From Candidatus Hydrogenedens sp. (GTDB lineage: Bacteria > Hydrogenedentota > Hydrogenedentia > Hydrogenedentales > Hydrogenedentaceae): a stretch of DNA of 20,238 nt. Below, piece by piece: positions 1,138 through 11,851 of the stretch. The DNA is taken from NCBI GenBank assembly GCA_049968235.1, contig JBMFRC010000034.1:1-20238 (forward strand), read 5' to 3'. A model generated the notes under the pieces. It was given only the letters and a program-made list of their open reading frames with translations. It searched no databases and was not told the origin of the DNA. The stretch's first letter is position 1. Each line of letters begins with the position of its first letter. Both the position numbers and the translations under genes were made by a program.

Positions 1138-1200
1138 AGTATAATACAATTTTTATTGCCCTGTCAAACTGACATGGATTTTGCTCTTTTTCAAGTCATT
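1138..1200 (-). promoter_or_regulatory. rRNA operon promoter (P1-like): -35 TTGACA, ~18-nt spacer, -10 TATACT, with an A-rich UP-like tract upstream
   Basis: Minus strand reads AAAAATGACTTGAAAAAGAGCAAAATCCATGTCAG TTGACA GGGCAATAAAAATTGTAT TATACT. The -35 is the rc of plus 1163-1168 and the -10 is the rc of plus 1138-1143. It lies ~235 nt upstream of the 16S 5' end on the same strand. The leader contains a GGGTAgAGAGACA/TGTCTCTtACCC hairpin at plus 1094-1125. Confidence 0.6.
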
Positions 1201-1540
1201 TTTACCATGACACCTGTTTAGACAGAGCCAATTTTTATTATAGCATATTTATAACGTTTTTTCAACTTTCAGATAACAACCCCTGAAATTTTTTAACTCG
1301 GATTTTTCTTCAGGGACTTGCCACTTTTGCTTTGCGTTATGCATTATCAAAAGCGGAGCATTATTATAACATAAATAAAATGAAAAGTCAAATTGTTTGT
1401 TCATGCTGATAAACAGAGGGGATTCTTGAGAATGATGCAATTAGAAGTTTTGAATAAATTTACAAAAGGATTTAAGGCTTAATTGAATTTTATGGTAAAT
1501 AAAAATTAAGGGTGATGATATGTTCTTGTTTGTGTATTTG

Positions 1541-1598: not shown

Positions 1599-3530
1599 CT
1601 AATCAAATTGAATATCACGCATGGCGGAATCTGCATCACCCGGATAAGTAAATATACGTATTGCTGTATAGCCTTTTCTGCGTGCAGAGAAAGGCACCTG
1701 TATCTTATGTTTCGTATAAGGTTCTACATTTCCTCTATCCGGTTCAACCCATGTTTTTTCAATCCTCTTTCTTGCAATCCAATTTTTGTTATTGAAGAAA
1801 AGGATAATAAAAGTATCGAATGAATCTAAATCTATTGTTAGGGATTTATCTTTTTTCATTTCATCAAGTTGAATCTCTATTCCATATTTCGGAACAATAA
1901 TTTTTGCAGATTCGTTTGATGCTATTCTTGCTTTTAATTCCCGATATGTTATCTTTTTGAGATTAGGAAATTGATAACGGTCTTTATCTATGAGGTAGTC
2001 ATACATACCTAAATTCATTTTGATGATGTCCCGCCAGCGTTCTATTGTAAATAAAGGACCGCGTGTGATAACTTTCAAATGGTCAAAAAATTGTGCTAAA
2101 TTTTTATCCTGGATTTTGTTTTCATCTCCCCCTGCGGAATCAATATAACCTTCGGGGATATATCGCCAGAAATGACCGATACGCCAACTTGGTCGGCAAA
2201 CAGCAGGCATTCGTGCTAATAAGGGGTCGGATAGTGCGTTATAATCAATAATATGAGCAACAGGACCTGCTAAGAAACCTCTATAGCCAACACTACCATG
2301 GGATTTGGTTATTCTTTTATTTGCCTGCCGATATTGTCTTCCTTGATTAGCAAAAGCATTACAAGGCATGGGTTTTCCTTTTTCCCAATGAGCCAGACTC
2401 GCCACTTGAAAATAGAACATTCGTTCATCACCTATACCATGTTCATCTTTAAATCCGGACAAATCTTTTCCAAAGGAGTTGTCCGTCAATATTGGGACAT
2501 TAGGCTGTATAAAACCTGTCATGAGAAATATACATATTGCGGGGATACCATGTTTCAATTGCTCCAATTTTGAATACCGAATAATAAGGATGGTAGCAAA
2601 GAGTAAAGGTACACTAAAAAATCTGCCTCCCATAAAATCGCCCCCTATCCAAATAATGTAAAGGCAATACAGAATAATACCTATCACACATGCCCAAATT
2701 TCTTTTTGCCTCTGATAAAATGGGATGAATAAACTTAAAAATAAAACCAGTAAGGTGATGAAATCTCTTTTCCACGAAAAAGCGTAATACCACAAGCCTT
2801 GCTTTATCAAATCCATTTTCCACAGTCCTGTACCTAATTTTGCGTAAGCAGTATTTGGAAATGGAAAGCCATAGTAAACAACTGAAAATACTTCCCACAA
2901 AGCCAGCGGGATAAAGCCTAAACAGAGTAGAATAAATCCTTGTTTCTTGTGTTCTGTCTGCCACCATGCATAAGCCAGTGGAGGGAAATAAAGTAAAATG
3001 CAATCCTGACGATTAAGAGTAGCCAGAGATGCTATCAGAGAGAGAAGAAATAAATTCTTCAAGGTAAATTTTTGTGGAAGGAATACAATCATAAATATCA
3101 CAAGTAATAAATGGCTCATAGGATTTTCCAGACCGGAAGAAGAAAAATCTACAAAAGCCCTTGAAAAACCTAGTATACTCCCTGCTATCAATACTTGCGA
3201 TAAGTTCTGTGCAATACCAAGATTTAAAGAAATTATTGTTAACATAGATATGGCAAATGAAATGAATATGGCAGTGAGAAACATTTCTCTTGTTATGGCA
3301 TAAAAAGGAATGTGCAGGAACATCCATAAAGGATGTGTATATGCCTGAACGCGTTCATTTACATTCCAGCGAAGTCCATAACCATTTACTGCATTATCCA
3401 CAGTACGAAATGATATATATGCATCATCGCATAACCATGCAGTACGAAGGAAAAGAATTGCAAAAAATATCCAGATACATAAAAGGGTAACACTTGTTAA
3501 AAACCACAATTTCTTTTTGCTATTTTCCAT
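1599..3530 (-). CDS. Polytopic membrane GT-C glycosyltransferase, AftB/Emb-like arabinofuranosyltransferase family (paralog 1, 643 aa)
   Basis: A 643-aa ORF. The N-terminal ~330 aa are highly hydrophobic (multiple TM helices) and the C-terminal ~300 aa are soluble. Motifs: WLCDDAYISFRTVDNAVNGYGLRWNVNERVQAYTHPLW (DD catalytic motif in the first loop), DFSSSGLENPMSH, YYGFPFPNTAYAKLG, WIGGDFMGGRFFSVPLL, IGDERMFY and RIGHFWRYIPEGY. From recollection these match mycobacterial AftB blocks (WIADDGLIVLRTVRN..GERVEA..TS.W; DFATSGLEN; YYGLLVPGTALAKD; GGDFMHGRVLLAPL; IVDERRFY; RIGHDKN). It is ~65% identical to the upstream paralog. Confidence 0.7.
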   Translation of the reverse strand: MENSKKKLWFLTSVTLLCIWIFFAILFLRTAWLCDDAYISFRTVDNAVNGYGLRWNVNERVQAYTHPLWMFLHIPFYAITREMFLTAIFISFAISMLTIISLNLGIAQNLSQVLIAGSILGFSRAFVDFSSSGLENPMSHLLLVIFMIVFLPQKFTLKNLFLLSLIASLATLNRQDCILLYFPPLAYAWWQTEHKKQGFILLCLGFIPLALWEVFSVVYYGFPFPNTAYAKLGTGLWKMDLIKQGLWYYAFSWKRDFITLLVLFLSLFIPFYQRQKEIWACVIGIILYCLYIIWIGGDFMGGRFFSVPLLFATILIIRYSKLEQLKHGIPAICIFLMTGFIQPNVPILTDNSFGKDLSGFKDEHGIGDERMFYFQVASLAHWEKGKPMPCNAFANQGRQYRQANKRITKSHGSVGYRGFLAGPVAHIIDYNALSDPLLARMPAVCRPSWRIGHFWRYIPEGYIDSAGGDENKIQDKNLAQFFDHLKVITRGPLFTIERWRDIIKMNLGMYDYLIDKDRYQFPNLKKITYRELKARIASNESAKIIVPKYGIEIQLDEMKKDKSLTIDLDSFDTFIILFFNNKNWIARKRIEKTWVEPDRGNVEPYTKHKIQVPFSARRKGYTAIRIFTYPGDADSAMRDIQFD

Positions 3531-3601
3531 AATAATTTTCTAATACCTTTTTATTTGTTTAAAAGCACATTACGAAATTATACAAAATTACACTTTACAA
3601 A

Positions 3602-5542
3602 TTATTTTGACAACAAGCGGAAATTTTTTATCTCGGAGTAAACATGTCTTTGATTGAGTTCCTTAGGGCAGACAAAAATACGAACTGTATCATATCCTTG
3701 CCTGATAACAAATTGTGGAAGTTTTATAGAATAAGTAGCAAATAACGACATATCGTCAGAAGTAGGACCTAATTTTATTCGTGTTAGGTATTCTTTATTG
3801 TTGAATAATAAAATATGGAATTGGTTCCATTTTCTTAATTCGAACTCCATATAGGGATTGTGTCTTACTTCTCCCAGTTGTATTTCTAATCCTCTTTCCT
3901 TAATTTTGAAACCTCGATTTTTTTCCAAATTTTGTAATTCTTCATCCCATTCTTTGTAATATTTTCTTTCTGTATCCGCAAATTGATATTTATCTTTATC
4001 TATTAGATGGTTGTAATATCCAAGATTCATTTTCAAAATCACTTCAAACCGTTCCCATGACCATATAGGACTACGGGTAATAATGCGGACATAATTATAG
4101 AATTGAGCGAGGTCAGGGTCTTCTATTTTATTTTCATTGCTACCCGCAGATTCCATATATCCTTCAGGGATATAGCGTATAAAATGACCTATAGCGATTT
4201 TGGGGTGATAAAGACTGGGCAAATGCGATAGTAATGGGTCTGCAAGGGCATGGAAATCAACAATATGAACAAGGGGACCTGAAAAAAAACCATAAAATCC
4301 GATACAACCGCGAAGTTTAGTTATTTGTATGTTTTTTCTTCTGTTTTCTCTTCCGTGCTCTGCCCAACTGAACGAGGGCATGGGTTTCCCTTTTTTCCAA
4401 TTTAATAGACTTGACCATTCATAATAATACTTGCGTTCTGTGGTAATCCCGTCCTTTGTAAAAAATCCTCCTTTACTATAATCTGCACCTGTAAAAATTG
4501 GAACATTAGGCTGTAATACACTTGAAAAGACGAAAAAAAACGCAATCGGGATGCCATATTTTATTTGGTTTACATTCAAATAACGAATAATCATGATTGT
4601 TGATAAGAGAAGAGGAACTGTGAAAAAACGACCACCCATAAAATCACCGCCTATCCATAAGATATATGCATAATAAAAGGTTAAACCCATCATCCAGATT
4701 ATTATTTCCTTTTGCCTTTGTAAAAAAGGAATGATGAATCCAATAAGAAGGACAAAACAAGTAATGCGGTCTTGATGATAAATCCATGTATAATATCGTA
4801 ATCCCTGAGAAATTAGGTCAAATCGAGATATTCCTGCTCCCAGTTTTGCGTAGGCTGTGTTGGGGAAAGGGTAACCATAATAAATAATCGAAAATACTTC
4901 CCAGAGAAATAAAGGCACAAAACCTGCACAGAGAAAAAGGAACCCTTTTGTCTTCTTTTCAGTATGCCACCATGCATAAATTAAAGCAGGTAGATAGATA
5001 AGAAGACAATCCTGACGGTTTAATGTAGCAAAACAGGATACGAGGGATAAAAGAAAAAGATTAGGTAATGTAAATTTTTTTAATAAAAATACAGAAAGAA
5101 AAAGCACTAATAGAAAATGACTCATCGGATTTTCTAAACCAGAAGAAGAAAAATCTATAAAGGCTCTTGAGAATCCTAATATACTGGCTACGATTAAAAC
5201 CTGTGCATTATTTTGAGCAATAAAAAGGGTAAGAAAAATAATAGTCAACATCGAAACAGTAAAAGAAATAAAGATAGGCGTCAGAAACATTTCTTTTGTA
5301 AGAAAATAAAAGGGTATATGTAAAAATAACCATAAGGGATGTGTGTATACCTGAACCCTTTCATTTATATTCCAGCGTAATCCATAGCCATTTACTGCAT
5401 TATCGACTGTACGGAAACTAATATATGCATCATCACAAAGCCATGCTGTCCGTAAAAACAGAATTGCAAAAAAGGTCCAGACACCCAGTAAAACAAGAAA
5501 ATTGTTTCTTCTATTTTTTAACATATCATCGAAATATGCCAC
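3602..5542 (-). CDS. Polytopic membrane GT-C glycosyltransferase, AftB/Emb-like arabinofuranosyltransferase family (paralog 2, 646 aa)
   Basis: A 646-aa ORF with the same architecture and the same motif set as paralog 1 (WLCDDAYISFRTVDNAVNGYGLRWNINERVQVYTHPLW; SSGLENPMSH; YYGYPFPNTAYAKLG; WIGGDFMGGRFFTVPLL; ITTERKYY; AIGHFIRYIPEGY). It is co-directional with paralog 1 with a 71-bp gap. DNA identity is only ~75-80% in the conserved blocks, so this is an old duplication and not an assembly artefact. Confidence 0.7.
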   Translation of the reverse strand: MAYFDDMLKNRRNNFLVLLGVWTFFAILFLRTAWLCDDAYISFRTVDNAVNGYGLRWNINERVQVYTHPLWLFLHIPFYFLTKEMFLTPIFISFTVSMLTIIFLTLFIAQNNAQVLIVASILGFSRAFIDFSSSGLENPMSHFLLVLFLSVFLLKKFTLPNLFLLSLVSCFATLNRQDCLLIYLPALIYAWWHTEKKTKGFLFLCAGFVPLFLWEVFSIIYYGYPFPNTAYAKLGAGISRFDLISQGLRYYTWIYHQDRITCFVLLIGFIIPFLQRQKEIIIWMMGLTFYYAYILWIGGDFMGGRFFTVPLLLSTIMIIRYLNVNQIKYGIPIAFFFVFSSVLQPNVPIFTGADYSKGGFFTKDGITTERKYYYEWSSLLNWKKGKPMPSFSWAEHGRENRRKNIQITKLRGCIGFYGFFSGPLVHIVDFHALADPLLSHLPSLYHPKIAIGHFIRYIPEGYMESAGSNENKIEDPDLAQFYNYVRIITRSPIWSWERFEVILKMNLGYYNHLIDKDKYQFADTERKYYKEWDEELQNLEKNRGFKIKERGLEIQLGEVRHNPYMEFELRKWNQFHILLFNNKEYLTRIKLGPTSDDMSLFATYSIKLPQFVIRQGYDTVRIFVCPKELNQRHVYSEIKNFRLLSK

Positions 5543-5640
5543 ACGATGCTTATGTGTTTTATTTACTCATAATAAAATAATAGAAAGAGTAAATACCATT
5601 CCACTTTTTTAGACAGAGGTAATACAGAATAAAATTGTTT

Positions 5641-5690
5641 TTTCAAGGGGTTTCAAGTTAAAATTATCCCTTAATTAATTTTAGTATAAT
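5641..5690 (+). promoter_or_regulatory. Putative clpP promoter region: direct heptad repeat TTTCAAG-ggg-TTTCAAG upstream of a TATAAT -10
   Basis: TTTCAAG at 5641-5647 and 5651-5657, exactly 10 bp apart. A perfect TATAAT lies at 5685-5690, 24 nt before the AAAGGAG RBS of clpP. The -35 is weak. On the opposite strand the same repeats read CTTGAAA x2, giving TTGAAA -35-like hexamers for the divergent GT-C paralog 2. Confidence 0.3.
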
Positions 5691-5714
5691 CTCGTGAAAG
5701 AAAGGAGCAAAGTA

Positions 5715-6302
5715 ATGGCTTTTTGTGAAGAACCGGAAATTCGTGAAGAGGAGAAACCAGCCCCGCAGGAAGGTCTATCTCTCCGATTGTTAAAAAATCG
5801 TGTAGTTATCGTATCTGGTGAAGTAACTCAGGAATTGGCGGAGAAAATCATAACACAATTATTGTTATTAGATTATGAATCTCAAGAACCCATTACTGTC
5901 TATGTATGTTCTCCTGGAGGACATGTCGATTCAGGTTTCGCCATTTATGACATAATGAAGTTTGTTCAGTCGCCAATAACGACAATTGGTGTAGGTTGGG
6001 TTGCCAGTATTGCTGTACCCATTCTAATGGGGGCTCCCAAAGAAAGACGGTTCGCATTACCCAACACACGATTTCTAATACATCAACCTTCAGGGGGAGC
6101 AGGAGGACAGGCGGCAGATATTCGAATAGAAGCACAGGAAATTTTAAAGATTCGTGAACGGATTAATCATCTTTTATCCGTGGAAACAGGACATCCCATA
6201 GAGAAAATAGCCAAAGATAGTGACCGCAATTTTTGGATGTCCGCAGAAGAGGCACTGGAATATGGTTTAATCGGAGAGATTATTGCTAAAAGAAAGATGT
6301 AA
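5715..6302 (+). CDS. clpP: ATP-dependent Clp protease proteolytic subunit (ClpP family, atypical N-terminus)
   Basis: Aligns to ClpP throughout the protease core. The catalytic Ser is in GWVASIA, the His in LIHQPSGG and the Asp in DSDRNFW. The ATG at 5715 is preferred because an AAAGGAG RBS sits 7 nt upstream; the ORF track starts at a GTG at 5694. The N-terminal ~25 aa (MAFCEEPEIREEEKPAPQEGL) are acidic and lack the canonical ClpP axial-loop motif. No clpX follows. Confidence 0.85.
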   Translation: MAFCEEPEIREEEKPAPQEGLSLRLLKNRVVIVSGEVTQELAEKIITQLLLLDYESQEPITVYVCSPGGHVDSGFAIYDIMKFVQSPITTIGVGWVASIAVPILMGAPKERRFALPNTRFLIHQPSGGAGGQAADIRIEAQEILKIRERINHLLSVETGHPIEKIAKDSDRNFWMSAEEALEYGLIGEIIAKRKM

Positions 6303-6314
6303 AAAAGGCAATAA

Positions 6315-7586
6315 ATGAATGAAAATGTATCTGAACAAATTACCCATCCCCCCAAAAAGTCCGTATTTAAGAAAATAATTTTTAGTATATTTTTAGTCAT
6401 TTCTGCAATCGTTATTAGTTTGATAATTTTCGTAGTGGGGGTTCTTATATTCTCTGTCTTATATTCTGAACCTATGCAAATGTATCCAGAACGAATAAAA
6501 GGAATACAAATTTCTTCACCCATACCTGTAGTCCCTGGGAAAGGAATGCCTGAAGATTTTTCTCCTATGCGTTCAACAAATAATGTTGACCTTATTCGCA
6601 TAGGTGCAAGTATATTTATGAGTTTACGCACAGCACCCAGTCATTTTGCATCAACCAATACAAAGTTGTATGTAATGCGTTCTGATGATGAAGGCAAATC
6701 ATGGAAGAAAGAACTATGTATAAGGATGGGACATGACCTCCGCGAACCTCGTTTCTTACATTTTAAGAACAGATTATTTTTATATTTCTACACAGGAGGT
6801 ACTGACCCTCTACGATTTGAACCGGGGTACATTCATTATAGTGAAAGACTGGAGGATAATTATTGGACAGAACCACAACAAATCTTTCAACCCGGTTATG
6901 TGGTCTGGCGTGTTCGCACCCTAGGAGAATATGCCTACATGTCGGTATATTATGGTTTAGATATATATGGGAAAGGAGACCGTGGCGATGTTCGTCTTTT
7001 AATTTCCTCCGATGGCGTTTTGTGGCAACCCATTTCTAATGAGCCACAAATTGACCGTGTTGGAGCAGAGGAGGCAGAATTTGTATTTGATGATAAAGGA
7101 GGAATTGTATCGCTGGTTCGTCTTGAAGTAGGAGGAGGTGCGTTAGTTTGTCGTGCCCCTGCGGATAAAATTGATTGCTGGGAGTGTAAATTTACACCTT
7201 ATAAAGTTGACTCCTCACTTATGTTTACCCACAAAGGGCGATTTTTTATTGTGGGTAGAAGAAACATAGCCGGACGTTCAGCAAGAACTGTAGGATTTTT
7301 ACCTGAAAGCGTCCAGAATGCATGGAGCATGGTATTTTATTCTATTACGCGAAAACGCACCTGCATATATGAAATAAATCCCAATACTCTGGAGTTATAC
7401 CCTCTTATTGATTTGCCATCTAAAGGAGATACCGCTTTTGCTGGAATTGTACCGTTTTCTGAGGAAAAATATTATCTGGTAAATTACAGCAGTCCCTTAG
7501 AAGGATTTGATTTGCCGTGGATTGGCGGACAATTATTAGAAAGCCGATTGTATGGGTTCATTCTCGATTTTTCTGATGTCAAATAA
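6315..7586 (+). CDS. Membrane-anchored BNR/Asp-box repeat protein (sialidase-like beta-propeller; possible glycoside hydrolase)
   Basis: 423 aa. There is an N-terminal hydrophobic anchor (IIFSIFLVISAIVISLIIFVVGVLIFSVL). Two clear Asp-box (S-x-D-x-G-x-x-W) motifs are present: RSDDEGKSW and SSDGVLW. The start is 12 bp after the clpP stop, which suggests co-transcription. Confidence 0.75.
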   Translation: MNENVSEQITHPPKKSVFKKIIFSIFLVISAIVISLIIFVVGVLIFSVLYSEPMQMYPERIKGIQISSPIPVVPGKGMPEDFSPMRSTNNVDLIRIGASIFMSLRTAPSHFASTNTKLYVMRSDDEGKSWKKELCIRMGHDLREPRFLHFKNRLFLYFYTGGTDPLRFEPGYIHYSERLEDNYWTEPQQIFQPGYVVWRVRTLGEYAYMSVYYGLDIYGKGDRGDVRLLISSDGVLWQPISNEPQIDRVGAEEAEFVFDDKGGIVSLVRLEVGGGALVCRAPADKIDCWECKFTPYKVDSSLMFTHKGRFFIVGRRNIAGRSARTVGFLPESVQNAWSMVFYSITRKRTCIYEINPNTLELYPLIDLPSKGDTAFAGIVPFSEEKYYLVNYSSPLEGFDLPWIGGQLLESRLYGFILDFSDVK

Positions 7587-7612: not shown

Positions 7613-10600
7613 ATTCAATCCATTGTTGAACAGTTTCCAATGTTTCTAAATAGAACTGGTGGACTTTTCTCTTTAAGTTTTTCAAGTATTCCGAAGGTGT
7701 CGGTGTAAATTGGATTTCAGGTAATAATTGTGGGAGCATGGCAAGTGTTTGTTCAGAGAGTGTAGAACTGCGAACTCCTGTAAATAATCGGTAGCGATTT
7801 AATATTTGCAAATAAATTCCAAAAGTCTTTTTCAAAAATTGCCATTTCTCTGTATGTTCAGGTGCAATATTTAATAGAATATTTAATGCATTAACAACTG
7901 AAGGAGTTGCTAACTCAGGACACTGTTCTATCTTTAATCTCTGCCACCAACGAACAATATATTCTAATTCGGCTGTTCCTCCTTCGGATTTTTTTAAGTT
8001 ATCAGGATTTGTTTGTTGAAGCATTTTTTGTCGTATGCTCTCACTTTTTTGGACATCTTCTCGGGATACAGGGAAATGAAAAGCCAGTTCAGTAAGTATC
8101 TGCGGAATGTTCACTGTCATTTCACCTTGTTCCACTATAACTCGGGCTTTCATCAATGCCATTTTTTCCCAGATATCTGCTTCACACTTATAATATTCCT
8201 TTAATTGGTTCAAACTAATTGCTAAGACTCCTTTTGAGCCGTACGGGCGTAACCGTGCATCAATATCATATAGAATTCCAAAACGGGTAGGTTCTTTAAG
8301 TTTTTTAATAATTCGTGATGATACATCCGCAAAATATTCAGAAGGACTAATGGGAATAGCATCCAATTCATCAACAGAATTTACATGTCCATCATAAACA
8401 AATATTAAATCAAGGTCACTACCAAAGGTCATTTCACCTCCACCAATCTTACCCAATCCTATTACTGCAAAGGGTAATGGACATGCTCCATATTTCTGTT
8501 TAGTTTCTTCCAAAGATATAATTGCTATATCCTGAAGTATTACTTCCGCTAATAGGGTAAGTTGTTCACATACCTCTTCAATAGTAAATGTTCTTACCAA
8601 ATCACCTAATGCAATTCGTAGCCACTCGGAATCCTTTAGACGATAATGAGAAGACTCCGGGAATACAGACCTTTTTAATTCCTGTAAGGAAAAATTTAAA
8701 TATTCAGGGTTAACTTTTTGTCCAATAAGTTCTCCCTGTAGAAACACTTCTATAATTCCGGGTTCTTTTATCCATATATCGGATAAAGCAGGGGCATGAG
8801 TTGCCAGTGTTACAAAAAAAGAACAAAGATTATAATTTTCTTTGAGGAGAGAGTAGATAACGCCCGGAATTTTTAGTCGTGATAATTGGGAAAAGAATTG
8901 TCTTAGAGACTCATCTGGGGAACAGGTATTACGGAACTCTTCACATAAATAAGGAACAATTTCTATAAAATTTTCACGAACATGTAAAGAATGAGGTGCG
9001 TCTTCTGGACCGTTTGCCAATAAGCGAAAAGTATCTCTCGCCGAGGTTACATCATTAAAACCAAACTCTTTTAATTTGTTTAAACCATCTTTCCCATCAG
9101 ATTGGGAACTTACTAAATCATAAACCCACAGATTACCGGATGCTTTAACTGCAACAAATTGTTCTAATATACTTCGGACTTCTTGTGTTTTATCTTTATA
9201 CACGCACCAGAAAGATTCCCCCGAGACATAACCCAATCGTTGGGCAAACTCATCTAAATCTTTTGGGTCCTGTGGTAAAGCATGTTTTTGTGTTCCGTAT
9301 TCAATTTGAAGACGGTGTTCTACCTCTCTCAAAAAACAGTAATTTTGTATCAGGGTTTCTGCGTCAAAAGGTTTTAAATAATTATTTTCCATCAATTTGT
9401 AAATAGCATCAATGGTATTGGTTATCCTTAGTTCGGGTTTTCTACCACCATTCAATAATTGGAGCAATTGTACGGTAAATTCAATATCCCGAATCCCTCC
9501 TCTACCCAATTTAACTTCATAACTTGTTTGTCCTTGTTCCGCTACCTGTTTTTCTACCATCAGTTTTGTCTGGTGTATATCATCCAATGTCTTATCATCA
9601 AAAAATTTTGGGAAAATAAAAGATCGCATCATCTCTAAAAATTCATTCCCGAGATTTATATCACCGGCACAAGGTCTACATTTCACCAACGCCTGTCGCT
9701 CCCATGCACGTCCATACTGGTAATAGTACTCTACAGAATTAGTAAGACTTTCTGCTAAAGCACCAACTTTTCCATAAGGTCGCAAACGCATATCAACACG
9801 GTAAATCTGACCTTCTTCGGTATGTTCTGATAAGAATTTAATAATTTGTTCCCCTAATTTACAGAAATATTCACGATTGGTAATTTGCCCTTTGTCCCCT
9901 CCACTTGTTTCCCCATCTCCATCGTAAATAAACAACAAATCAATATCGGAACTAAAATTAAGTTCTCTGCCCCCTAATTTTCCCAGTGCAAATATGACAA
10001 AATTTGACGATGAATTTTCTCCTTTTTGCGTATCATGTCTTATTGGAACACCGTATCGTTGTTTTAAGTAGGTTGAGAGTAAATGAAAACATAATTCGAG
10101 ATGAGCGTCCGCAAGATTAGAAAGGTCCTCTACAATGGACTTGACTTCCTGATGTTCTACTATATCACGAGTAGTAATTCGAAGAAGTGCTTTTTTATGA
10201 AGTCGGCGGAAATATATCATTATTTTTTTCAAATCCCAATCATTACCCTCAAGAAGGTGCTTATCCCGGAGAACACTTATTATTTCAGAGGATGAATTCA
10301 TCAAAGCGGAATCCCAACCTAAGTAAAACATCCATTCTTCTTTTGTTAAAGCACGGGAAAGGGTTGGCGACAATAATATTTCATCTGCAAATTCGGGATG
10401 CTTAATGAGGCTATCCGTTATGAATGGACTTTGTGAAAATATTCTTTCAAAAAATCGCAAATATTTGGGAGTTTGAAGATATTTATATATATGAATTTCC
10501 ACAGGGGATGTTAGACTTTTTAGGTATTGTGCAAAAGCAACAATTACACGCTCAGGATTAGAGGTTTCATTAAGAAGCAATTCCAGCCGGGTTTGCCATT

Positions 10601-10682
10601 CCTGAATAGGGATGGATATTAAATAATTCCAATCTTCTCTGACACTTTCGGATAATCGATCGAATATATTTCTTTTTTCCAT
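7611..10682 (-). CDS. glnE: Bifunctional glutamine synthetase adenylyltransferase / adenylyl-removing enzyme
   Basis: A 1023-aa ORF with two nucleotidyltransferase signatures: LGKLGGRELNFSSDIDLLFIYDG and LGKIGGGEMTFGSDLDLIFVYDG. Further collinear blocks match E. coli GlnE (YRVDMRLRPYG, GGIRDIEFTVQLLQL). Confidence 0.9.
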   Translation of the reverse strand: MEKRNIFDRLSESVREDWNYLISIPIQEWQTRLELLLNETSNPERVIVAFAQYLKSLTSPVEIHIYKYLQTPKYLRFFERIFSQSPFITDSLIKHPEFADEILLSPTLSRALTKEEWMFYLGWDSALMNSSSEIISVLRDKHLLEGNDWDLKKIMIYFRRLHKKALLRITTRDIVEHQEVKSIVEDLSNLADAHLELCFHLLSTYLKQRYGVPIRHDTQKGENSSSNFVIFALGKLGGRELNFSSDIDLLFIYDGDGETSGGDKGQITNREYFCKLGEQIIKFLSEHTEEGQIYRVDMRLRPYGKVGALAESLTNSVEYYYQYGRAWERQALVKCRPCAGDINLGNEFLEMMRSFIFPKFFDDKTLDDIHQTKLMVEKQVAEQGQTSYEVKLGRGGIRDIEFTVQLLQLLNGGRKPELRITNTIDAIYKLMENNYLKPFDAETLIQNYCFLREVEHRLQIEYGTQKHALPQDPKDLDEFAQRLGYVSGESFWCVYKDKTQEVRSILEQFVAVKASGNLWVYDLVSSQSDGKDGLNKLKEFGFNDVTSARDTFRLLANGPEDAPHSLHVRENFIEIVPYLCEEFRNTCSPDESLRQFFSQLSRLKIPGVIYSLLKENYNLCSFFVTLATHAPALSDIWIKEPGIIEVFLQGELIGQKVNPEYLNFSLQELKRSVFPESSHYRLKDSEWLRIALGDLVRTFTIEEVCEQLTLLAEVILQDIAIISLEETKQKYGACPLPFAVIGLGKIGGGEMTFGSDLDLIFVYDGHVNSVDELDAIPISPSEYFADVSSRIIKKLKEPTRFGILYDIDARLRPYGSKGVLAISLNQLKEYYKCEADIWEKMALMKARVIVEQGEMTVNIPQILTELAFHFPVSREDVQKSESIRQKMLQQTNPDNLKKSEGGTAELEYIVRWWQRLKIEQCPELATPSVVNALNILLNIAPEHTEKWQFLKKTFGIYLQILNRYRLFTGVRSSTLSEQTLAMLPQLLPEIQFTPTPSEYLKNLKRKVHQFYLETLETVQQWIE

Positions 10683-10693
10683 ATTTTAGTGAG

Positions 10694-11851
10694 TCATCGT
10701 TTTGTTTTTATTTTACCGTAATAAAAAAGTTTCGCTATCTGTTCGCTTGTTCGTTGAATATTATTTGAAGTGTTTTTCAAAATATCTTCCTGGGATGTTT
10801 CTCCCGCAGAAATAGGAAAGACAACGACATTTCTTTTAGACTGGCATACATCCCAACCTTTTCCTAATTTCCCAACAAGGATAATTACCATTTTATTATA
10901 CATCTGGGCAAGACTTATCATTTCCCCGACAACCTTTCCAAAAAAACTCTGGTGGTCTAATTGTCCTTCGCCAGTAATAATAAGGTCAACAGAAGCAAGT
11001 TTCCGGGATAAATTACTGGCTTGGGCTATCCATTGAAAACCGGGAATAAACTTCCCGTTAGCAAATGCAAATAAAGCGCCTCCCATTCCTCCTGCGGAAC
11101 CACTGCTCGGTTGTTTCTGTATATCTATTTGCATATCTCTCTTGATTATACCAGCAAATTTTCTAAGGGCTTTATCTACAATGGGACATAACTCTTTTTT
11201 CAATCCTTTTTGAGGACCATATACAAATGTAGCCCCCTGTGGACCGTAGTAAGGATTTTTTACATCACTGGCTATGATAATATCTGTGTTTTTAATTCGT
11301 TCATAAAAACGGGTATTTTTTATACATGCAAGATTTTGTAGTTCTAAAGGTCCTTCCCCAATAGATTTTCCTTGAGAATTGAGAAGTTGATAACCTAACG
11401 CCTGAGCAATACCTGCTCCCCCATCATTAACCCCAGACCCTCCTAAACCTATGACAATCTGTCTTGCCCCTTTTTGAATTGCATGCAGAATAATCTCTCC
11501 CACTCCATAACTAGTAAAAAATTCCGGTTTTCGTACATTTTTTGGAACAAGATGAAGCCCCACAATTTTAGCCGTTTCTATAACGGCTGTCTTTTGTTTT
11601 GAAATCCAGCCATACTTAACTTTCCTTTTTTTACCTGTTAAATCTGTAACAGTCGTAGTGAGGTATTCTACATTTAAATTTACCGATACTGCATTTAAAA
11701 AACCCTCTCCACCATCTGAAAGGGGACATATAATTAACTGACTATCAGGAATTATTCGTTTCCATCCCTCGGCAATAGAGGTTGCAACTTCTGTGGTATC
11801 TAAAGACTCCTTAAAAGAATCCGGAGCAATAAGAACTTTTAATTTTGCCAT
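10694..11851 (-). CDS. glxK: Glycerate kinase (GarK/GlxK family)
   Basis: 385 aa, beginning MAKLKVLIAPDSFKESL, with glycine-rich loops (VIGLGGSGVNDGGAG) typical of the glycerate kinase family. It lies 11 bp upstream of glnE on the same strand. Choosing the symbol glxK over garK is arbitrary. Confidence 0.8.
   Translation of the reverse strand: MAKLKVLIAPDSFKESLDTTEVATSIAEGWKRIIPDSQLIICPLSDGGEGFLNAVSVNLNVEYLTTTVTDLTGKKRKVKYGWISKQKTAVIETAKIVGLHLVPKNVRKPEFFTSYGVGEIILHAIQKGARQIVIGLGGSGVNDGGAGIAQALGYQLLNSQGKSIGEGPLELQNLACIKNTRFYERIKNTDIIIASDVKNPYYGPQGATFVYGPQKGLKKELCPIVDKALRKFAGIIKRDMQIDIQKQPSSGSAGGMGGALFAFANGKFIPGFQWIAQASNLSRKLASVDLIITGEGQLDHQSFFGKVVGEMISLAQMYNKMVIILVGKLGKGWDVCQSKRNVVVFPISAGETSQEDILKNTSNNIQRTSEQIAKLFYYGKIKTKR

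What the first reader, a model, noticed from the sequence alone, without database searches (positions are those of the whole stretch)
1599..5542. Tandem, anciently duplicated AftB/Emb-like GT-C arabinofuranosyltransferase homologs in a low-GC, apparently non-actinobacterial genome
Two co-directional 643/646-aa membrane proteins are ~65% identical to each other. Both carry the first-loop DD motif (WLCDDAYISFRTVDN...NERVQ.YTHPLW) and five further blocks: SSGLENP, YYGxPFPNTAYAKLG, GGDFMGGRFF, GDERxFY and RIGHFxRYIPEGY. As far as I can recall, these line up with conserved blocks of mycobacterial AftB, the terminal beta-1,2-arabinofuranosyltransferase. AftB is a GT-C enzyme that uses decaprenyl-phospho-arabinose as donor.

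That family belongs canonically to the arabinogalactan and lipoarabinomannan pathways of high-GC Corynebacteriales. Finding two diverged copies next to an rRNA operon in an AT-rich genome is unexpected. It implies a polyprenyl-phosphate-pentofuranose (or related) donor and an uncharacterised envelope glycan in this lineage. The duplication is old (DNA identity ~75-80%), so the two enzymes probably have distinct linkage or acceptor specificities.
Basis: partly seen in the sequence, partly recalled or inferred. Interest (0 to 1): 0.78.

Follow-up and report, generated by a model that had tools for sequence, protein, structure and literature searches.

The report
Tandem AftB-like membrane glycosyltransferase paralogs
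Two neighbouring genes in an uncultured Hydrogenedens bacterium encode membrane sugar-transferases that are real but distant relatives of the mycobacterial cell-wall enzyme AftB; they belong to a very large, untested family found in many bacterial phyla, so their presence here is not a surprise.

Summary
The two ORFs are real: 1599-3530 and 3602-5524/5542, both on the minus strand. The contig comes from a Candidatus Hydrogenedens sp. MAG, where both are annotated as hypothetical proteins.

The family is large and widespread: at least 591 species genomes in 15 or more phyla. Occurrence outside Actinobacteria is therefore ordinary.

A polyprenyl-phosphate-pentofuranose donor is plausible. Two relatives sit beside phosphoribosyltransferase/DprE1/DprE2-type genes. 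I could not test this in the Hydrogenedens genome, and the window holds no donor genes.

Verdict: new, uncharacterised members of a known kind; moderate interest.

The parts
1599..3530 (-). ORF A: AftB-like GT-C glycosyltransferase, 643 aa (NCBI locus tag ACP5UA_13810, 'hypothetical protein')
2508..3530 (-). ORF A residues 1-341: membrane domain, about 11-12 helices, with juxtamembrane helices after TM1
   Evidence: Helices in the AF2 model. Hydropathy peaks. This stretch aligns to the AftB TM domain. It is 67% identical between A and B.
3423..3428 (-). ORF A D35-D36 (DD motif). D36 corresponds to the catalytic D62 of M. chubuense AftB.
   Evidence: Alignment to 9dlf, with residue roles from PMC12041299. 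D36 is kept in 351 of 358 relatives. Coordinates checked. The other donor-contact equivalents are T65 (3336-3338), E135 (3126-3128), R174 (3009-3011), T227 (2850-2852) and R303 (2622-2624).
1914..2507 (-). ORF A residues 342-539: periplasmic alpha/beta core domain (GDERxFY and RIGHFxRYIPEGY blocks)
   Evidence: AF2 secondary structure. Weak but ordered alignment to the AftB periplasmic domain. About 51% identical between A and B, measured over residues 341-520.
1602..1913 (-). ORF A residues 540-643: C-terminal eight-strand beta-sandwich, CBM-like. AftB has no equivalent.
3531..3601 (-). 71-bp A/T-rich spacer between ORF B and ORF A, with no terminator-like hairpin; co-transcription is likely
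   Evidence: Sequence. No terminator-like site in the spacer.
3602..5542 (-). ORF B: paralogous AftB-like GT-C glycosyltransferase (ACP5UA_13815). 640 aa from ATG 5524 in public gene calls; the longest ORF starts at GTG 5542 (646 aa).
   Evidence: NCBIfam AftB model E 1.2e-12. 56% identical to ORF A. All seven checked active-site residues are present.
5429..5434 (-). ORF B DD motif (D37-D38 in 646-aa numbering)
   Evidence: Translation check; alignment.
5543..5693 (.). Divergent intergenic region between ORF B and clpP (5694-6302, +); presumed promoter region for the GT-C pair
   Evidence: Sequence. ClpP assigned by Pfam. There are only weak sigma-70-like matches, so the promoter is inferred and not shown.

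Best explanation
**What it is.** ORF A and ORF B are anciently duplicated paralogs of a very large, experimentally uncharacterised family of GT-C membrane glycosyltransferases. AftB (CAZy GT89 by my own recollection, not checked here) is the family's closest characterised and solved relative.

**Architecture.** Each protein has about 11 membrane helices. A catalytic Asp-Asp motif sits on the first periplasmic juxtamembrane loop. A periplasmic cap domain follows. The C-terminus is a carbohydrate-binding-module-like beta-sandwich.

**Proposed mechanism.**
1. Shown by homology and modelling: the enzyme binds a polyprenyl-phosphate-linked sugar from the outer leaflet of the cytoplasmic membrane. 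The two conserved arginines (R174, R303) would hold the phosphate.
2. Inferred: D36 attacks or activates C1 of the sugar.
3. Inferred: the sugar is transferred to an envelope glycan held by the periplasmic domain and the CBM-like module.
4. Inferred: the sugar is most likely a pentofuranose. D-arabinofuranose is the first candidate, with ribo- or xylofuranose as alternatives. It would be made from PRPP by a polyprenyl-phosphate phosphoribosyltransferase, a phosphatase and epimerases encoded elsewhere in the genome, and added with retention of configuration as in AftB.
5. Inferred: the two paralogs probably act on different acceptor sites, because they differ mainly in the CBM-like module.

They are not orthologues of AftB, and there is no evidence that this organism makes arabinogalactan.
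For: **Homology to AftB**
- AftB is the only NCBIfam hit and the only significant PDB sequence hit (E 6e-11 with ORF A).
- It is the only PDB hit of the 25-sequence family profile (123.7 bits, E 6e-35).
- The AF2 model is confident (pLDDT 93.1, pTM 0.91).
- Foldseek's best PDB hit is AftB: E 5e-13 over 618 alignment columns.

**Active site**
- AftB residues D62, T91, E172, R221, T274 and R372 are the catalytic and donor-contact residues (PMC12041299).
- They map to D36, T65, E135, R174, T227 and R303 of ORF A.
- These are invariant in 25 diverse relatives and present in 341-356 of 358 relatives, including ORF B.

**Donor, from gene neighbourhoods of relatives**
- In Aneurinibacillus aneurinilyticus (L015), a 38%-identical family member lies next to an operon. 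The operon encodes:
  - a decaprenyl-phosphate phosphoribosyltransferase that passes the NCBIfam equivalog cut-offs (275.5 bits against 234);
  - a DprE1 homologue (E 6e-93 to M. tuberculosis DprE1);
  - a DprE2-like SDR, an SMR-type transporter and a PAP2-like phosphatase.
- A Peregrinibacteria member (L039) lies 4 bp from an SDR epimerase and close to an SMR transporter and a phosphoribosyltransferase-type UbiA.
- More distant AftB-like GT-Cs are operonic with UbiA/DprE1/DprE2 on non-actinobacterial contigs. One example is L148, at 31% GC and Sulfurovum-like. They keep [DE]D, T, E, R and [TS].
- Periplasmic pentofuranose addition by a phosphoribose synthase, a flippase and a GT-C with a C-terminal CBM is established in Gram-negative bacteria (PMC11127046).

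**Paralogs**
- Identity is 67% in the membrane domain and 24% in the CBM-like module.
- The A and B clades each contain counterparts from other metagenomic contigs; the named ones are Hydrogenedens or Hydrogenedentes MAGs.
Against: - No donor-pathway gene (UbiA-type, DprE1/2, flippase, GtrB-like) lies in the 20-kb window.
- None lies in the Hydrogenedentota loci fetched or looked up.
- I could not show that the pathway exists in this genome. Two homologue searches were uninformative.
- Across 85 loci of the family there is no conserved neighbour. Only 2 show phosphoribosyltransferase genes within 10 kb.
- Among 80 metagenomic DprE1 loci, none carries a close member of this family (best 132 bits, against more than 670 for true members).
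- In L015 the DPA-type operon contains its own two GT-Cs. Those might be the real consumers of the donor.
- No A. migulanus protein appears among the top DprE1 homologues, although that species has the GT-C. This suggests absence but does not prove it.
- Some relatives sit near GtrB-like GT2 or UDP-xylose-synthase-like genes.
- No member of this family has been tested experimentally, as far as my literature searches show.
Confidence: 0.6

Rival explanations
1. Same fold and membrane topology, but a different lipid-linked donor. The enzymes would transfer a hexose or another sugar from a polyprenyl-phosphate donor made by a GtrB/ArnC-like GT2 from a nucleotide sugar, as in O-antigen glucosylation or ArnT. 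Examples are Und-P-Glc, -Man, -GalNAc, -Xylp and -L-Ara4N.
For: - No phosphoribosyltransferase or DprE genes lie in the window.
- 83 of 85 family loci lack such genes.
- GtrB-like GT2 genes lie within about 6 kb in L025, L027 and L053. UDP-glucuronate-decarboxylase-like SDRs lie within about 160 bp in L016, L062 and L028.
- L039 also carries Ugd plus a UXS-like gene.
- Some relatives weakly hit PMT_2 (PF13231).
- The phosphate-binding arginines and the catalytic Asp are generic to GT-C enzymes.
Against: - The three AftB residues that touch the sugar itself are almost invariant across the family: T91, E172 on the C5 hydroxyl, and T274 at C2.
- AftB is far closer in sequence and structure than ArnT, PMT or ALG enzymes.
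- The GT2 and UXS neighbours are few and 5-6 kb away in most cases.
Confidence: 0.27
2. The acceptor is a protein rather than a polysaccharide. The enzymes would be O-glycosyltransferases that decorate pilins, S-layer or other surface proteins, like P. aeruginosa TfpW (D-Araf on pilin) or PMT-type enzymes.
For: - TfpW shows that a GT-C can put D-Araf on a protein outside Actinobacteria (bioRxiv 10.1101/2020.04.19.049825).
- In both Aneurinibacillus loci the gene lies close to a large SLH-domain protein. In L015 it lies directly beside it (82 bp); in L004 it lies about 6 kb away.
Against: - The C-terminal module resembles carbohydrate-binding modules.
- In the GT136 prototype, a comparable module binds the unmodified polysaccharide (PMC11127046).
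- AftB acts on glycans.
- No pilin or S-layer gene is in the window.
Confidence: 0.1
3. These are true AftB orthologues acquired by horizontal transfer from Actinobacteria. They would build terminal beta-(1->2)-Araf caps on an arabinan like that of arabinogalactan or LAM.
For: AftB is the best database match, and the motif blocks line up.
Against: - Identity to AftB is only 19-21%.
- The scores of 53 and 47 bits fall far below the equivalog cut-off of 1050.
- The C-terminal architecture differs.
- The GC content matches the host contig.
- The family is deep and spread over 15 or more phyla, with its own Hydrogenedentota clades.
- No Emb/AftA/AftC/AftD-type or galactan genes are nearby.
Confidence: 0.02

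Closest known systems
AftB: terminal beta-(1->2)-arabinofuranosyltransferase of Mycobacteriales (Rv3805c; NCBIfam NF041481; structures 9dlf/9dlh; CAZy GT89 by my recollection)
   Same: [quoted passage not shown]
- DD motif on the first periplasmic loop.
- All five donor-contact residues are conserved.
- The six sequence blocks are collinear.
- AftB is the best sequence and structure match by a wide margin.
   Different: - Only 19-21% identical, and far below the equivalog threshold.
- The helical second lobe of the AftB periplasmic domain is replaced or extended by a CBM-like beta-sandwich.
- The host is not an actinobacterium.
- There is no adjacent ubiA or cell-wall cluster.
- The acceptor cannot be the arabinan of arabinogalactan/LAM unless this lineage makes an unknown equivalent.
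Three-component periplasmic pentofuranose glycosylation systems: PPPRS + flippase + GT-C, prototype Citrobacter youngae ORF12 (CAZy GT136; Kelly et al. 2024, PMC11127046)
   Same: - Overall logic and architecture match: a protein of about 650 aa with 11 TM helices, a small periplasmic domain after TM1 and a C-terminal beta-rich CBM.
- The donor is a polyprenyl-phosphate pentofuranose made from PRPP.
- Optional SDR or DprE1/E2 epimerases diversify the sugar.
- Relatives of the window proteins occur in exactly such gene sets (L015, L039).
   Different: - GT136 was reported to lack sequence similarity to existing GT families, with ArnT as its nearest by sequence.
- Its key residues (D31, E34, H106, R349, Y350) form a different motif set.
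- It is inverting and gives alpha-linkages, whereas an AftB-type enzyme is expected to retain.
- In the window the GT-C genes stand alone, without the synthase and the flippase.
TfpW of Pseudomonas aeruginosa group IV pilin systems
   Same: A GT-C enzyme outside Actinobacteria that uses a lipid-linked D-Araf donor made by DprE1/DprE2/UbiA homologues.
   Different: It acts on a protein acceptor (pilin) and makes alpha-1,5-Araf oligomers. I did not examine its sequence relationship to the window proteins.
ArnT / PMT_2-type GT-C enzymes (PF13231; CAZy GT83/GT39 by my recollection)
   Different: The window proteins give no Pfam hit to PMT_2 even at E up to 10. Their motif set and periplasmic domain are of the AftB type.

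Membership tests
AftB (NCBIfam NF041481 equivalog) | Whole-protein score at or above the curated equivalog cut-off (1050 bits) | tested here: not met
   52.8 bits for ORF A and 46.7 bits for ORF B. They are remote homologues, not equivalogs.
AftB (NCBIfam NF041481 equivalog) | GT-C_A fold: multi-helix membrane domain plus a C-terminal periplasmic cap, with AftB as the nearest structure | tested here: met
AftB (NCBIfam NF041481 equivalog) | DD motif with the catalytic Asp (D62), plus donor-contact residues T91, E172, R221, T274 and R372 | tested here: met
   They map to D36, T65, E135, R174, T227 and R303 in ORF A, and the same residues are present in ORF B. They are conserved in at least 95% of 358 relatives.
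AftB (NCBIfam NF041481 equivalog) | Periplasmic domain of two lobes, the second made of seven alpha-helices | tested here: not met
   The model ends in an eight-strand beta-sandwich (residues about 540-643) that matches CBMs. The AftB description comes from PMC12041299.
AftB (NCBIfam NF041481 equivalog) | Decaprenyl-phosphate-arabinose pathway (phosphoribosyltransferase, phosphatase, DprE1, DprE2) in the same genome | not testable with these tools
   Only a 20-kb contig is available and it holds none of these genes. Homologue searches returned no Hydrogenedentes proteins among the 120 listed. The pathway does lie next to relatives in L015 and partly in L039.
AftB (NCBIfam NF041481 equivalog) | Retaining beta-(1->2) transfer of Araf onto arabinan termini of arabinogalactan/LAM | not testable with these tools
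   This needs biochemistry. No arabinogalactan-type genes are seen in the window.
Emb/AftA/AftD-type arabinosyltransferases (Pfam Arabinose_trans and related) | Match to the family's sequence models or closest structural similarity | tested here: not met
Three-component pentofuranose glycosylation system (GT136 prototype, PMC11127046) | Polyprenyl-phosphate phosphoribose synthase and a flippase (MATE or SMR) encoded with the GT-C | tested here: not met
   None is present in the window. Both are present beside relatives in L015 and L039.
Three-component pentofuranose glycosylation system (GT136 prototype, PMC11127046) | GT-C with about 11 TM helices and a C-terminal CBM | tested here: met
Three-component pentofuranose glycosylation system (GT136 prototype, PMC11127046) | Sequence membership in GT136 (ORF12-type residues D31, E34, H106, R349) | not tested
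   I had no ORF12 sequence to align. The motif set reported for ORF12 differs from the AftB-type set found here.
PMT_2 / ArnT-like GT-C (PF13231) | Pfam gathering-score match | tested here: not met
   No match for either ORF at E up to 10. Relative P0027 passes at 28.3 bits against a cut-off of 26.1.

The most novel reading that the evidence does not exclude
This family would be the non-actinobacterial counterpart of AftB: a widespread clade of retaining GT-C enzymes that add beta-linked pentofuranoses (D-Araf, Ribf or Xylf) to envelope glycans. Members span 15 or more phyla, including Hydrogenedentota, Chloroflexota, Acidobacteriota and candidate-phyla-radiation bacteria. Kelly et al. [quoted passage not shown] If true, a whole class of undescribed beta-pentofuranosylated surface glycans exists, and the Hydrogenedens pair makes two different such linkages.
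Probability: 0.3. Interest if true: 0.62.

Novelty: new member of a known kind. Interest (0 to 1): 0.38.

Why it matters
**If the inference holds.** Lipid-linked pentofuranose glycosylation has been studied almost only in mycobacteria, as a drug-target pathway, and since 2024 in a few enterobacterial O antigens. It would then be used by many uncultured phyla through an AftB-type enzyme.

This would predict beta-linked furanosyl pentoses on unknown envelope glycans. It would also offer experimentally tractable relatives, such as Aneurinibacillus aneurinilyticus ATCC 12856, for studying the debated retaining GT-C mechanism outside a pathogen.

**For this window alone.** The practical gain is a better annotation of two 'hypothetical proteins'. 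It also corrects the idea that AftB-like enzymes are confined to Corynebacteriales.

Tried and rejected
1. **Pfam scan of both ORFs.** No family matched, only a sub-threshold DUF7353 hit. Pfam cannot classify them.
2. **Emb-likeness.** Rejected. EmbA/B match only at GT-C superfamily level.
3. **Recent transfer from Actinobacteria.** Rejected on identity, score, GC content and the family's own deep clades.
4. **Conserved gene neighbourhood.**
   - I clustered 1075 ORFs from 87 loci. No neighbour is shared beyond lineage synteny. The best case is 9 of 85 loci, a sigma factor.
   - UXS-like and GtrB-like neighbours are sporadic.
5. **Donor pathway in Hydrogenedentes.**
   - I searched with the Aneurinibacillus DprE1 homologue. 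The 120 listed hits were dominated by Bacillota.
   - I searched with a profile of low-GC phosphoribosyltransferases. The few named hits were Sulfurovum and Sulfurimonas.
   - Neither search shows absence. Both were uninformative for this lineage.
6. **Metagenome scan anchored on DprE1.**
   - It found no close member of the window's family next to DprE1, only more distant AftB-like GT-Cs.
   - Co-localisation is the exception, not the rule.
7. **Literature searches.** Searches for GT89/AftB homologues outside Actinobacteria, or in Hydrogenedentes, found nothing specific.
8. **The 423-aa neighbour gene (6315-7586) as part of the system.** No support. It is absent from all other family loci.

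Full report
**1. Observation**

The window has two co-directional minus-strand ORFs. One runs 1599-3530 (643 aa, ATG start). The other runs 3602-5542 (646 aa from GTG). Public gene calls start the second ORF at ATG 5524, which gives 640 aa.

The exact proteins are on record in Candidatus Hydrogenedens sp. MAGs as ACP5UA_13810 and ACP5UA_13815. Both are named 'hypothetical protein'.

The region is AT-rich, with GC 0.32-0.38. The 5' 880 positions of a bacterial 16S rRNA gene lie at 1-896 on the same strand.

- Protein identity is 56% over the BLASTP alignment and 54% globally.
- DNA identity is 61%.
- Third codon positions are 43% identical, so synonymous sites are saturated.

The listed motif blocks are present in both. 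Two are exact only in ORF A: ORF B has TTERKYY where A has GDERMFY, and AIGHF where A has RIGHF.

A 71-bp spacer without a terminator-like hairpin separates the genes. Co-transcription is therefore likely but not shown.

**2. What the proteins are**

Pfam gives no match. NCBIfam gives a single hit for each protein, the AftB equivalog model NF041481. The E-values are 1.7e-14 and 1.2e-12. The scores are only 53 and 47 bits against a curated cut-off of 1050.

Against all PDB sequences, the only significant hit is M. chubuense AftB (9dlf/9dlh), at E 6e-11.

A profile of 25 diverse relatives hits AftB alone, at 123.7 bits and E 6e-35.

An AlphaFold2 model of ORF A built on that alignment is confident (pLDDT 93.1, pTM 0.91). 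Its structural matches are:

| Search | Match | Score |
|---|---|---|
| Foldseek, PDB | AftB | E 5e-13, 618 alignment columns |
| Foldseek, PDB | EmbA-EmbB complex entry | E 6e-5 |
| Foldseek, PDB | ArnT | E 1.5e-3 |

'Emb-like' is not supported beyond the shared GT-C superfamily.

**3. Active site**

The AftB structure paper (PMC12041299) identifies these residues:
- D62, the second Asp of the DD motif, is the essential catalytic residue.
- R221 and R372 hold the donor phosphate.
- T91 forms an additional hydrogen bond to the donor phosphate.
- E172 bonds the C5 hydroxyl of arabinofuranose.
- T274 contacts the C2 position.

Counting through the HMMER alignment, these are D36, T65, E135, R174, T227 and R303 of ORF A. 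All six are invariant in the 25-sequence alignment. All six are present in ORF B. Each is kept in 341-356 of 358 family members.

Both paralogs therefore look catalytically competent. They keep not only the generic GT-C residues but also those that touch the sugar.

**4. Differences from AftB**

This module is the most diverged part between the paralogs:

| Region of ORF A | Identity to ORF B |
|---|---|
| Membrane domain (1-340) | 67% |
| Periplasmic core (341-520) | 51% |
| C-terminal stretch holding the beta-sandwich (521-643) | 24% |

In many relatives the tblastn match covers only residues 1 to about 515, which suggests they lack the module. This fits an accessory acceptor-binding role. 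Both points are inference only.

**5. Distribution**

The family is not rare and not confined to one lineage:
- The word-indexed search found 6468 relatives among the 8000 candidates scored.
- The exhaustive profile search found 24,585 clusters at 50% identity with E up to 1e-3, and 4,863 with E up to 1e-30.

The best 80 of those loci span Hydrogenedentota, Chloroflexota (including the cultured Levilinea saccharolytica), Acidobacteriota and Zixibacteria. They also span Ignavibacteria, Spirochaetales, Planctomycetota and Omnitrophica, and Peregrinibacteria, Nitrospirales, Polyangiales and Parabeggiatoa. SAR324, Bacillota (Aneurinibacillus) and one Nitrososphaerales archaeon MAG complete the list.

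JGI already names many members 'arabinofuranosyltransferase'. Finding an AftB-like gene outside Corynebacteriales is therefore ordinary. What is missing is any experimental characterisation.

**6. The duplication**

Tandem or multiple copies occur at 16 of the loci examined. A neighbour-joining tree, without bootstrap support, shows three Hydrogenedentota clades:
- an A clade: ORF A with P0001-P0014 and P0016;
- a sister B clade: ORF B with P0015 and P0017-P0023;
- a third clade outside both: P0024, P0034 and P0037.

In some MAGs the tandem partner of the A-type gene belongs to the third clade. The clearest example is the adjacent pair N3G21_06075/06070. A related MAG has only one full copy at the syntenic site. 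The A/B split therefore predates the divergence of the several lineages that carry each type, as far as this rough tree shows.

**7. Donor: evidence from context**

The window itself holds no glycan genes. Its other contents are:
- a 16S rRNA gene;
- clpP and a 423-aa unknown protein;
- glnE and a glycerate kinase gene;
- greA, carB and metK;
- rplA, rplK, nusG and tRNA-Trp.

Clustering 1075 ORFs from 87 loci gave no conserved neighbour. Two relatives are informative.

*Aneurinibacillus aneurinilyticus ATCC 12856 (L015).* The family gene (9767-11689, 38% identical) is divergent from an operon. That operon encodes:
- a UbiA-family protein that passes the NCBIfam equivalog cut-offs for decaprenyl-phosphate phosphoribosyltransferase (275.5 bits against 234; 238.2 against 207);
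- a DprE1 homologue (38% identity and E 6e-93 to M. tuberculosis DprE1; 455.8 bits against a cut-off of 500). I wrote the M. tuberculosis query from memory and verified it against the PDB;
- a DprE2-like SDR;
- an SMR/EamA-type small transporter;
- a divergent PAP2 phosphatase;
- two further unclassified GT-C-like membrane proteins.

*A Peregrinibacteria MAG (L039).* The family gene lies 4 bp from an SDR epimerase. It is also near an SMR transporter and a phosphoribosyltransferase-type UbiA, which scores 208 bits against a cut-off of 234.

*DprE1-anchored metagenome loci.* UbiA and DprE2-like genes are frequent partners of DprE1, in 43 and 50 of 80 loci. None of these loci carries a close member of the window's family. 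Four carry more distant AftB-like GT-Cs, scoring 29-132 bits against the family profile; AftB itself scores 124. Three of these four loci have the GT-C directly operonic with DprE1/DprE2, and L148 and L145 also carry UbiA. One is L148, a 31%-GC contig whose phosphoribosyltransferase is closest to Sulfurovum and Sulfurimonas proteins. These GT-Cs keep the [DE]D, T, E, R and [TS] positions.

So actinobacterial AftB uses DPA. These distant operonic relatives are linked to DPA-type genes. The window's family shares one donor-site signature with both. This bracketing supports a pentofuranose donor, but only moderately.

**8. Comparison with what is known**

Kelly et al. 2024 (PMC11127046) established 'three-component' periplasmic pentofuranose glycosylation in Gram-negative bacteria. 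The three components are:
- a polyprenyl-phosphate phosphoribose synthase;
- a MATE or SMR flippase;
- a GT-C enzyme.

The GT-C is GT136 ORF12. It has 11 TM helices and a C-terminal CBM that binds the unmodified polysaccharide. Optional SDR or DprE1/E2 epimerases give Xylf or Araf.

The L015 and L039 gene sets fit that scheme, with the window's family as the GT-C.

The same paper notes that a beta-linked pentofuranose side chain would need a retaining GT-C. AftB is the only precedent it cites, and it found no other beta-Araf or beta-Xylf side chains. An AftB-type family outside Actinobacteria is the obvious candidate for that missing activity. This is the most novel reading that my evidence does not exclude.

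ORF12's reported catalytic residues and its nearest relative, ArnT, differ from the AftB-type motif set. I therefore do not file the window proteins under GT136. I had no ORF12 sequence to align.

**9. What remains open**

I could not show that the Hydrogenedens genome has a donor pathway. Only 20 kb are available. The Hydrogenedentota loci I fetched have no such genes. Two database searches returned only the 120 best hits, none named as Hydrogenedentes.

Several points count against a universal pentofuranose donor:
- Co-localisation is rare.
- The DPA-type operon in L015 contains its own GT-Cs.
- Some loci carry GtrB-like GT2 or UDP-xylose-synthase-like genes.
- A. migulanus has the GT-C in an ABC-transporter-type polysaccharide cluster with an SLH protein. 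It shows no close DprE1 among the listed hits.

**10. Verdict**

My confidence for each claim:

| Claim | Confidence |
|---|---|
| AftB-related, catalytically intact GT-C glycosyltransferases that use a lipid-phosphate-linked sugar on the periplasmic side | about 0.9 |
| The full explanation, including a pentofuranose donor | about 0.6 |
| Same fold, but a hexose or other donor | about 0.27 |
| True AftB orthologues building arabinan | about 0.02 |

These are new, uncharacterised members of a known kind of enzyme, with a variant C-terminal module. The finding is a sound annotation and a reasonable lead.

Noticed in passing
window 1138-1391 (- strand): Three strong sigma-70-like promoter matches in tandem, each 11 of 12 hexamer positions, two with an extended -10 TG. 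They lie 240-500 bp upstream of the 16S rRNA 5' end (896) and look like stacked rRNA promoters. Region-wide, the count of promoter-like sites is not above the shuffled expectation.
   Followed up: partly
window 6315-7586 (+): A 423-aa protein directly after clpP, where clpX often sits. It has no Pfam hit. It has an N-terminal membrane anchor and two Asp-box-like motifs (SDDEGKSW, SSDGVLW), which suggest a BNR/sialidase-like beta-propeller. Among the loci fetched it occurs only at the near-identical locus L001. Its exact-sequence cluster holds only Candidatus Hydrogenedens sp. MAG entries.
   Followed up: partly
L015 1867-9475 and 11771-14449 (Aneurinibacillus aneurinilyticus ATCC 12856): A complete DPA-type gene set in a Bacillota isolate: phosphoribosyltransferase, DprE1-like, DprE2-like, an SMR transporter and a PAP2-like phosphatase. 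It comes with two paralogous polytopic proteins of 441 and 461 aa that match no Pfam or NCBIfam model, next to an 892-aa SLH-domain protein. This suggests an arabinofuranose-containing cell-wall polymer or S-layer glycan in a culturable Gram-positive organism.
   Followed up: partly
L148 186-6694 (metagenome contig, GC 31%): An operon reading UbiA-type phosphoribosyltransferase, 148-aa ORF, DprE1, DprE2, then two GT-C genes. Its closest phosphoribosyltransferases are Sulfurovum/Sulfurimonas proteins. The first GT-C weakly hits the Leptospira LA_3751/LA_3752 putative glycosyltransferase family (NF047440); I did not scan the second. DprE1 homologues are also abundant in Bacillota, Dehalococcoidia and Terriglobia.
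   Followed up: partly
L039 6529-14544 (Candidatus Peregrinibacteria MAG): A candidate-phyla-radiation genome carries a family member flanked by two gene sets. One is UDP-glucose dehydrogenase plus a UDP-glucuronate-decarboxylase-like SDR. The other is an SDR epimerase, an SMR transporter and a phosphoribosyltransferase-type UbiA. Together they resemble a three-component pentofuranose system with an ORF13-like epimerase.
   Followed up: partly
L044 2485-4422 (Nitrososphaerales archaeon MAG contig, 6.4 kb): A 36%-identical family member on a contig binned as a thaumarchaeon, with a GT2-like ORF 339 bp away. It could be horizontal transfer or a binning error.
   Followed up: no
P0122 (1804 aa), P0138 (1223 aa), P0173 (1152 aa): Some representatives embed the complete AftB-like module inside much longer proteins, for example at residues 915-1540 of 1804. 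This implies fusions with other domains, which I did not examine.
   Followed up: no
L005 8541-12049 and L006 123-3586 (Candidatus Hydrogenedens sp. GC168): In another Hydrogenedens MAG, a family member overlaps by 4 bp the end of an upstream sulfatase gene (PF00884 + SGSH_C). This suggests an operon linking a sulfatase and the GT-C.
   Followed up: no
L003 9413-11944 (Hydrogenedens-related MAG, 1.43-Mb contig): At the syntenic site (carB, greA, glycerate kinase, glnE, clpP) there is only one full-length family gene. A 180-aa ORF without a Pfam hit sits where the second copy lies in the window. It may be a remnant of the second copy or an unrelated gene.
   Followed up: no
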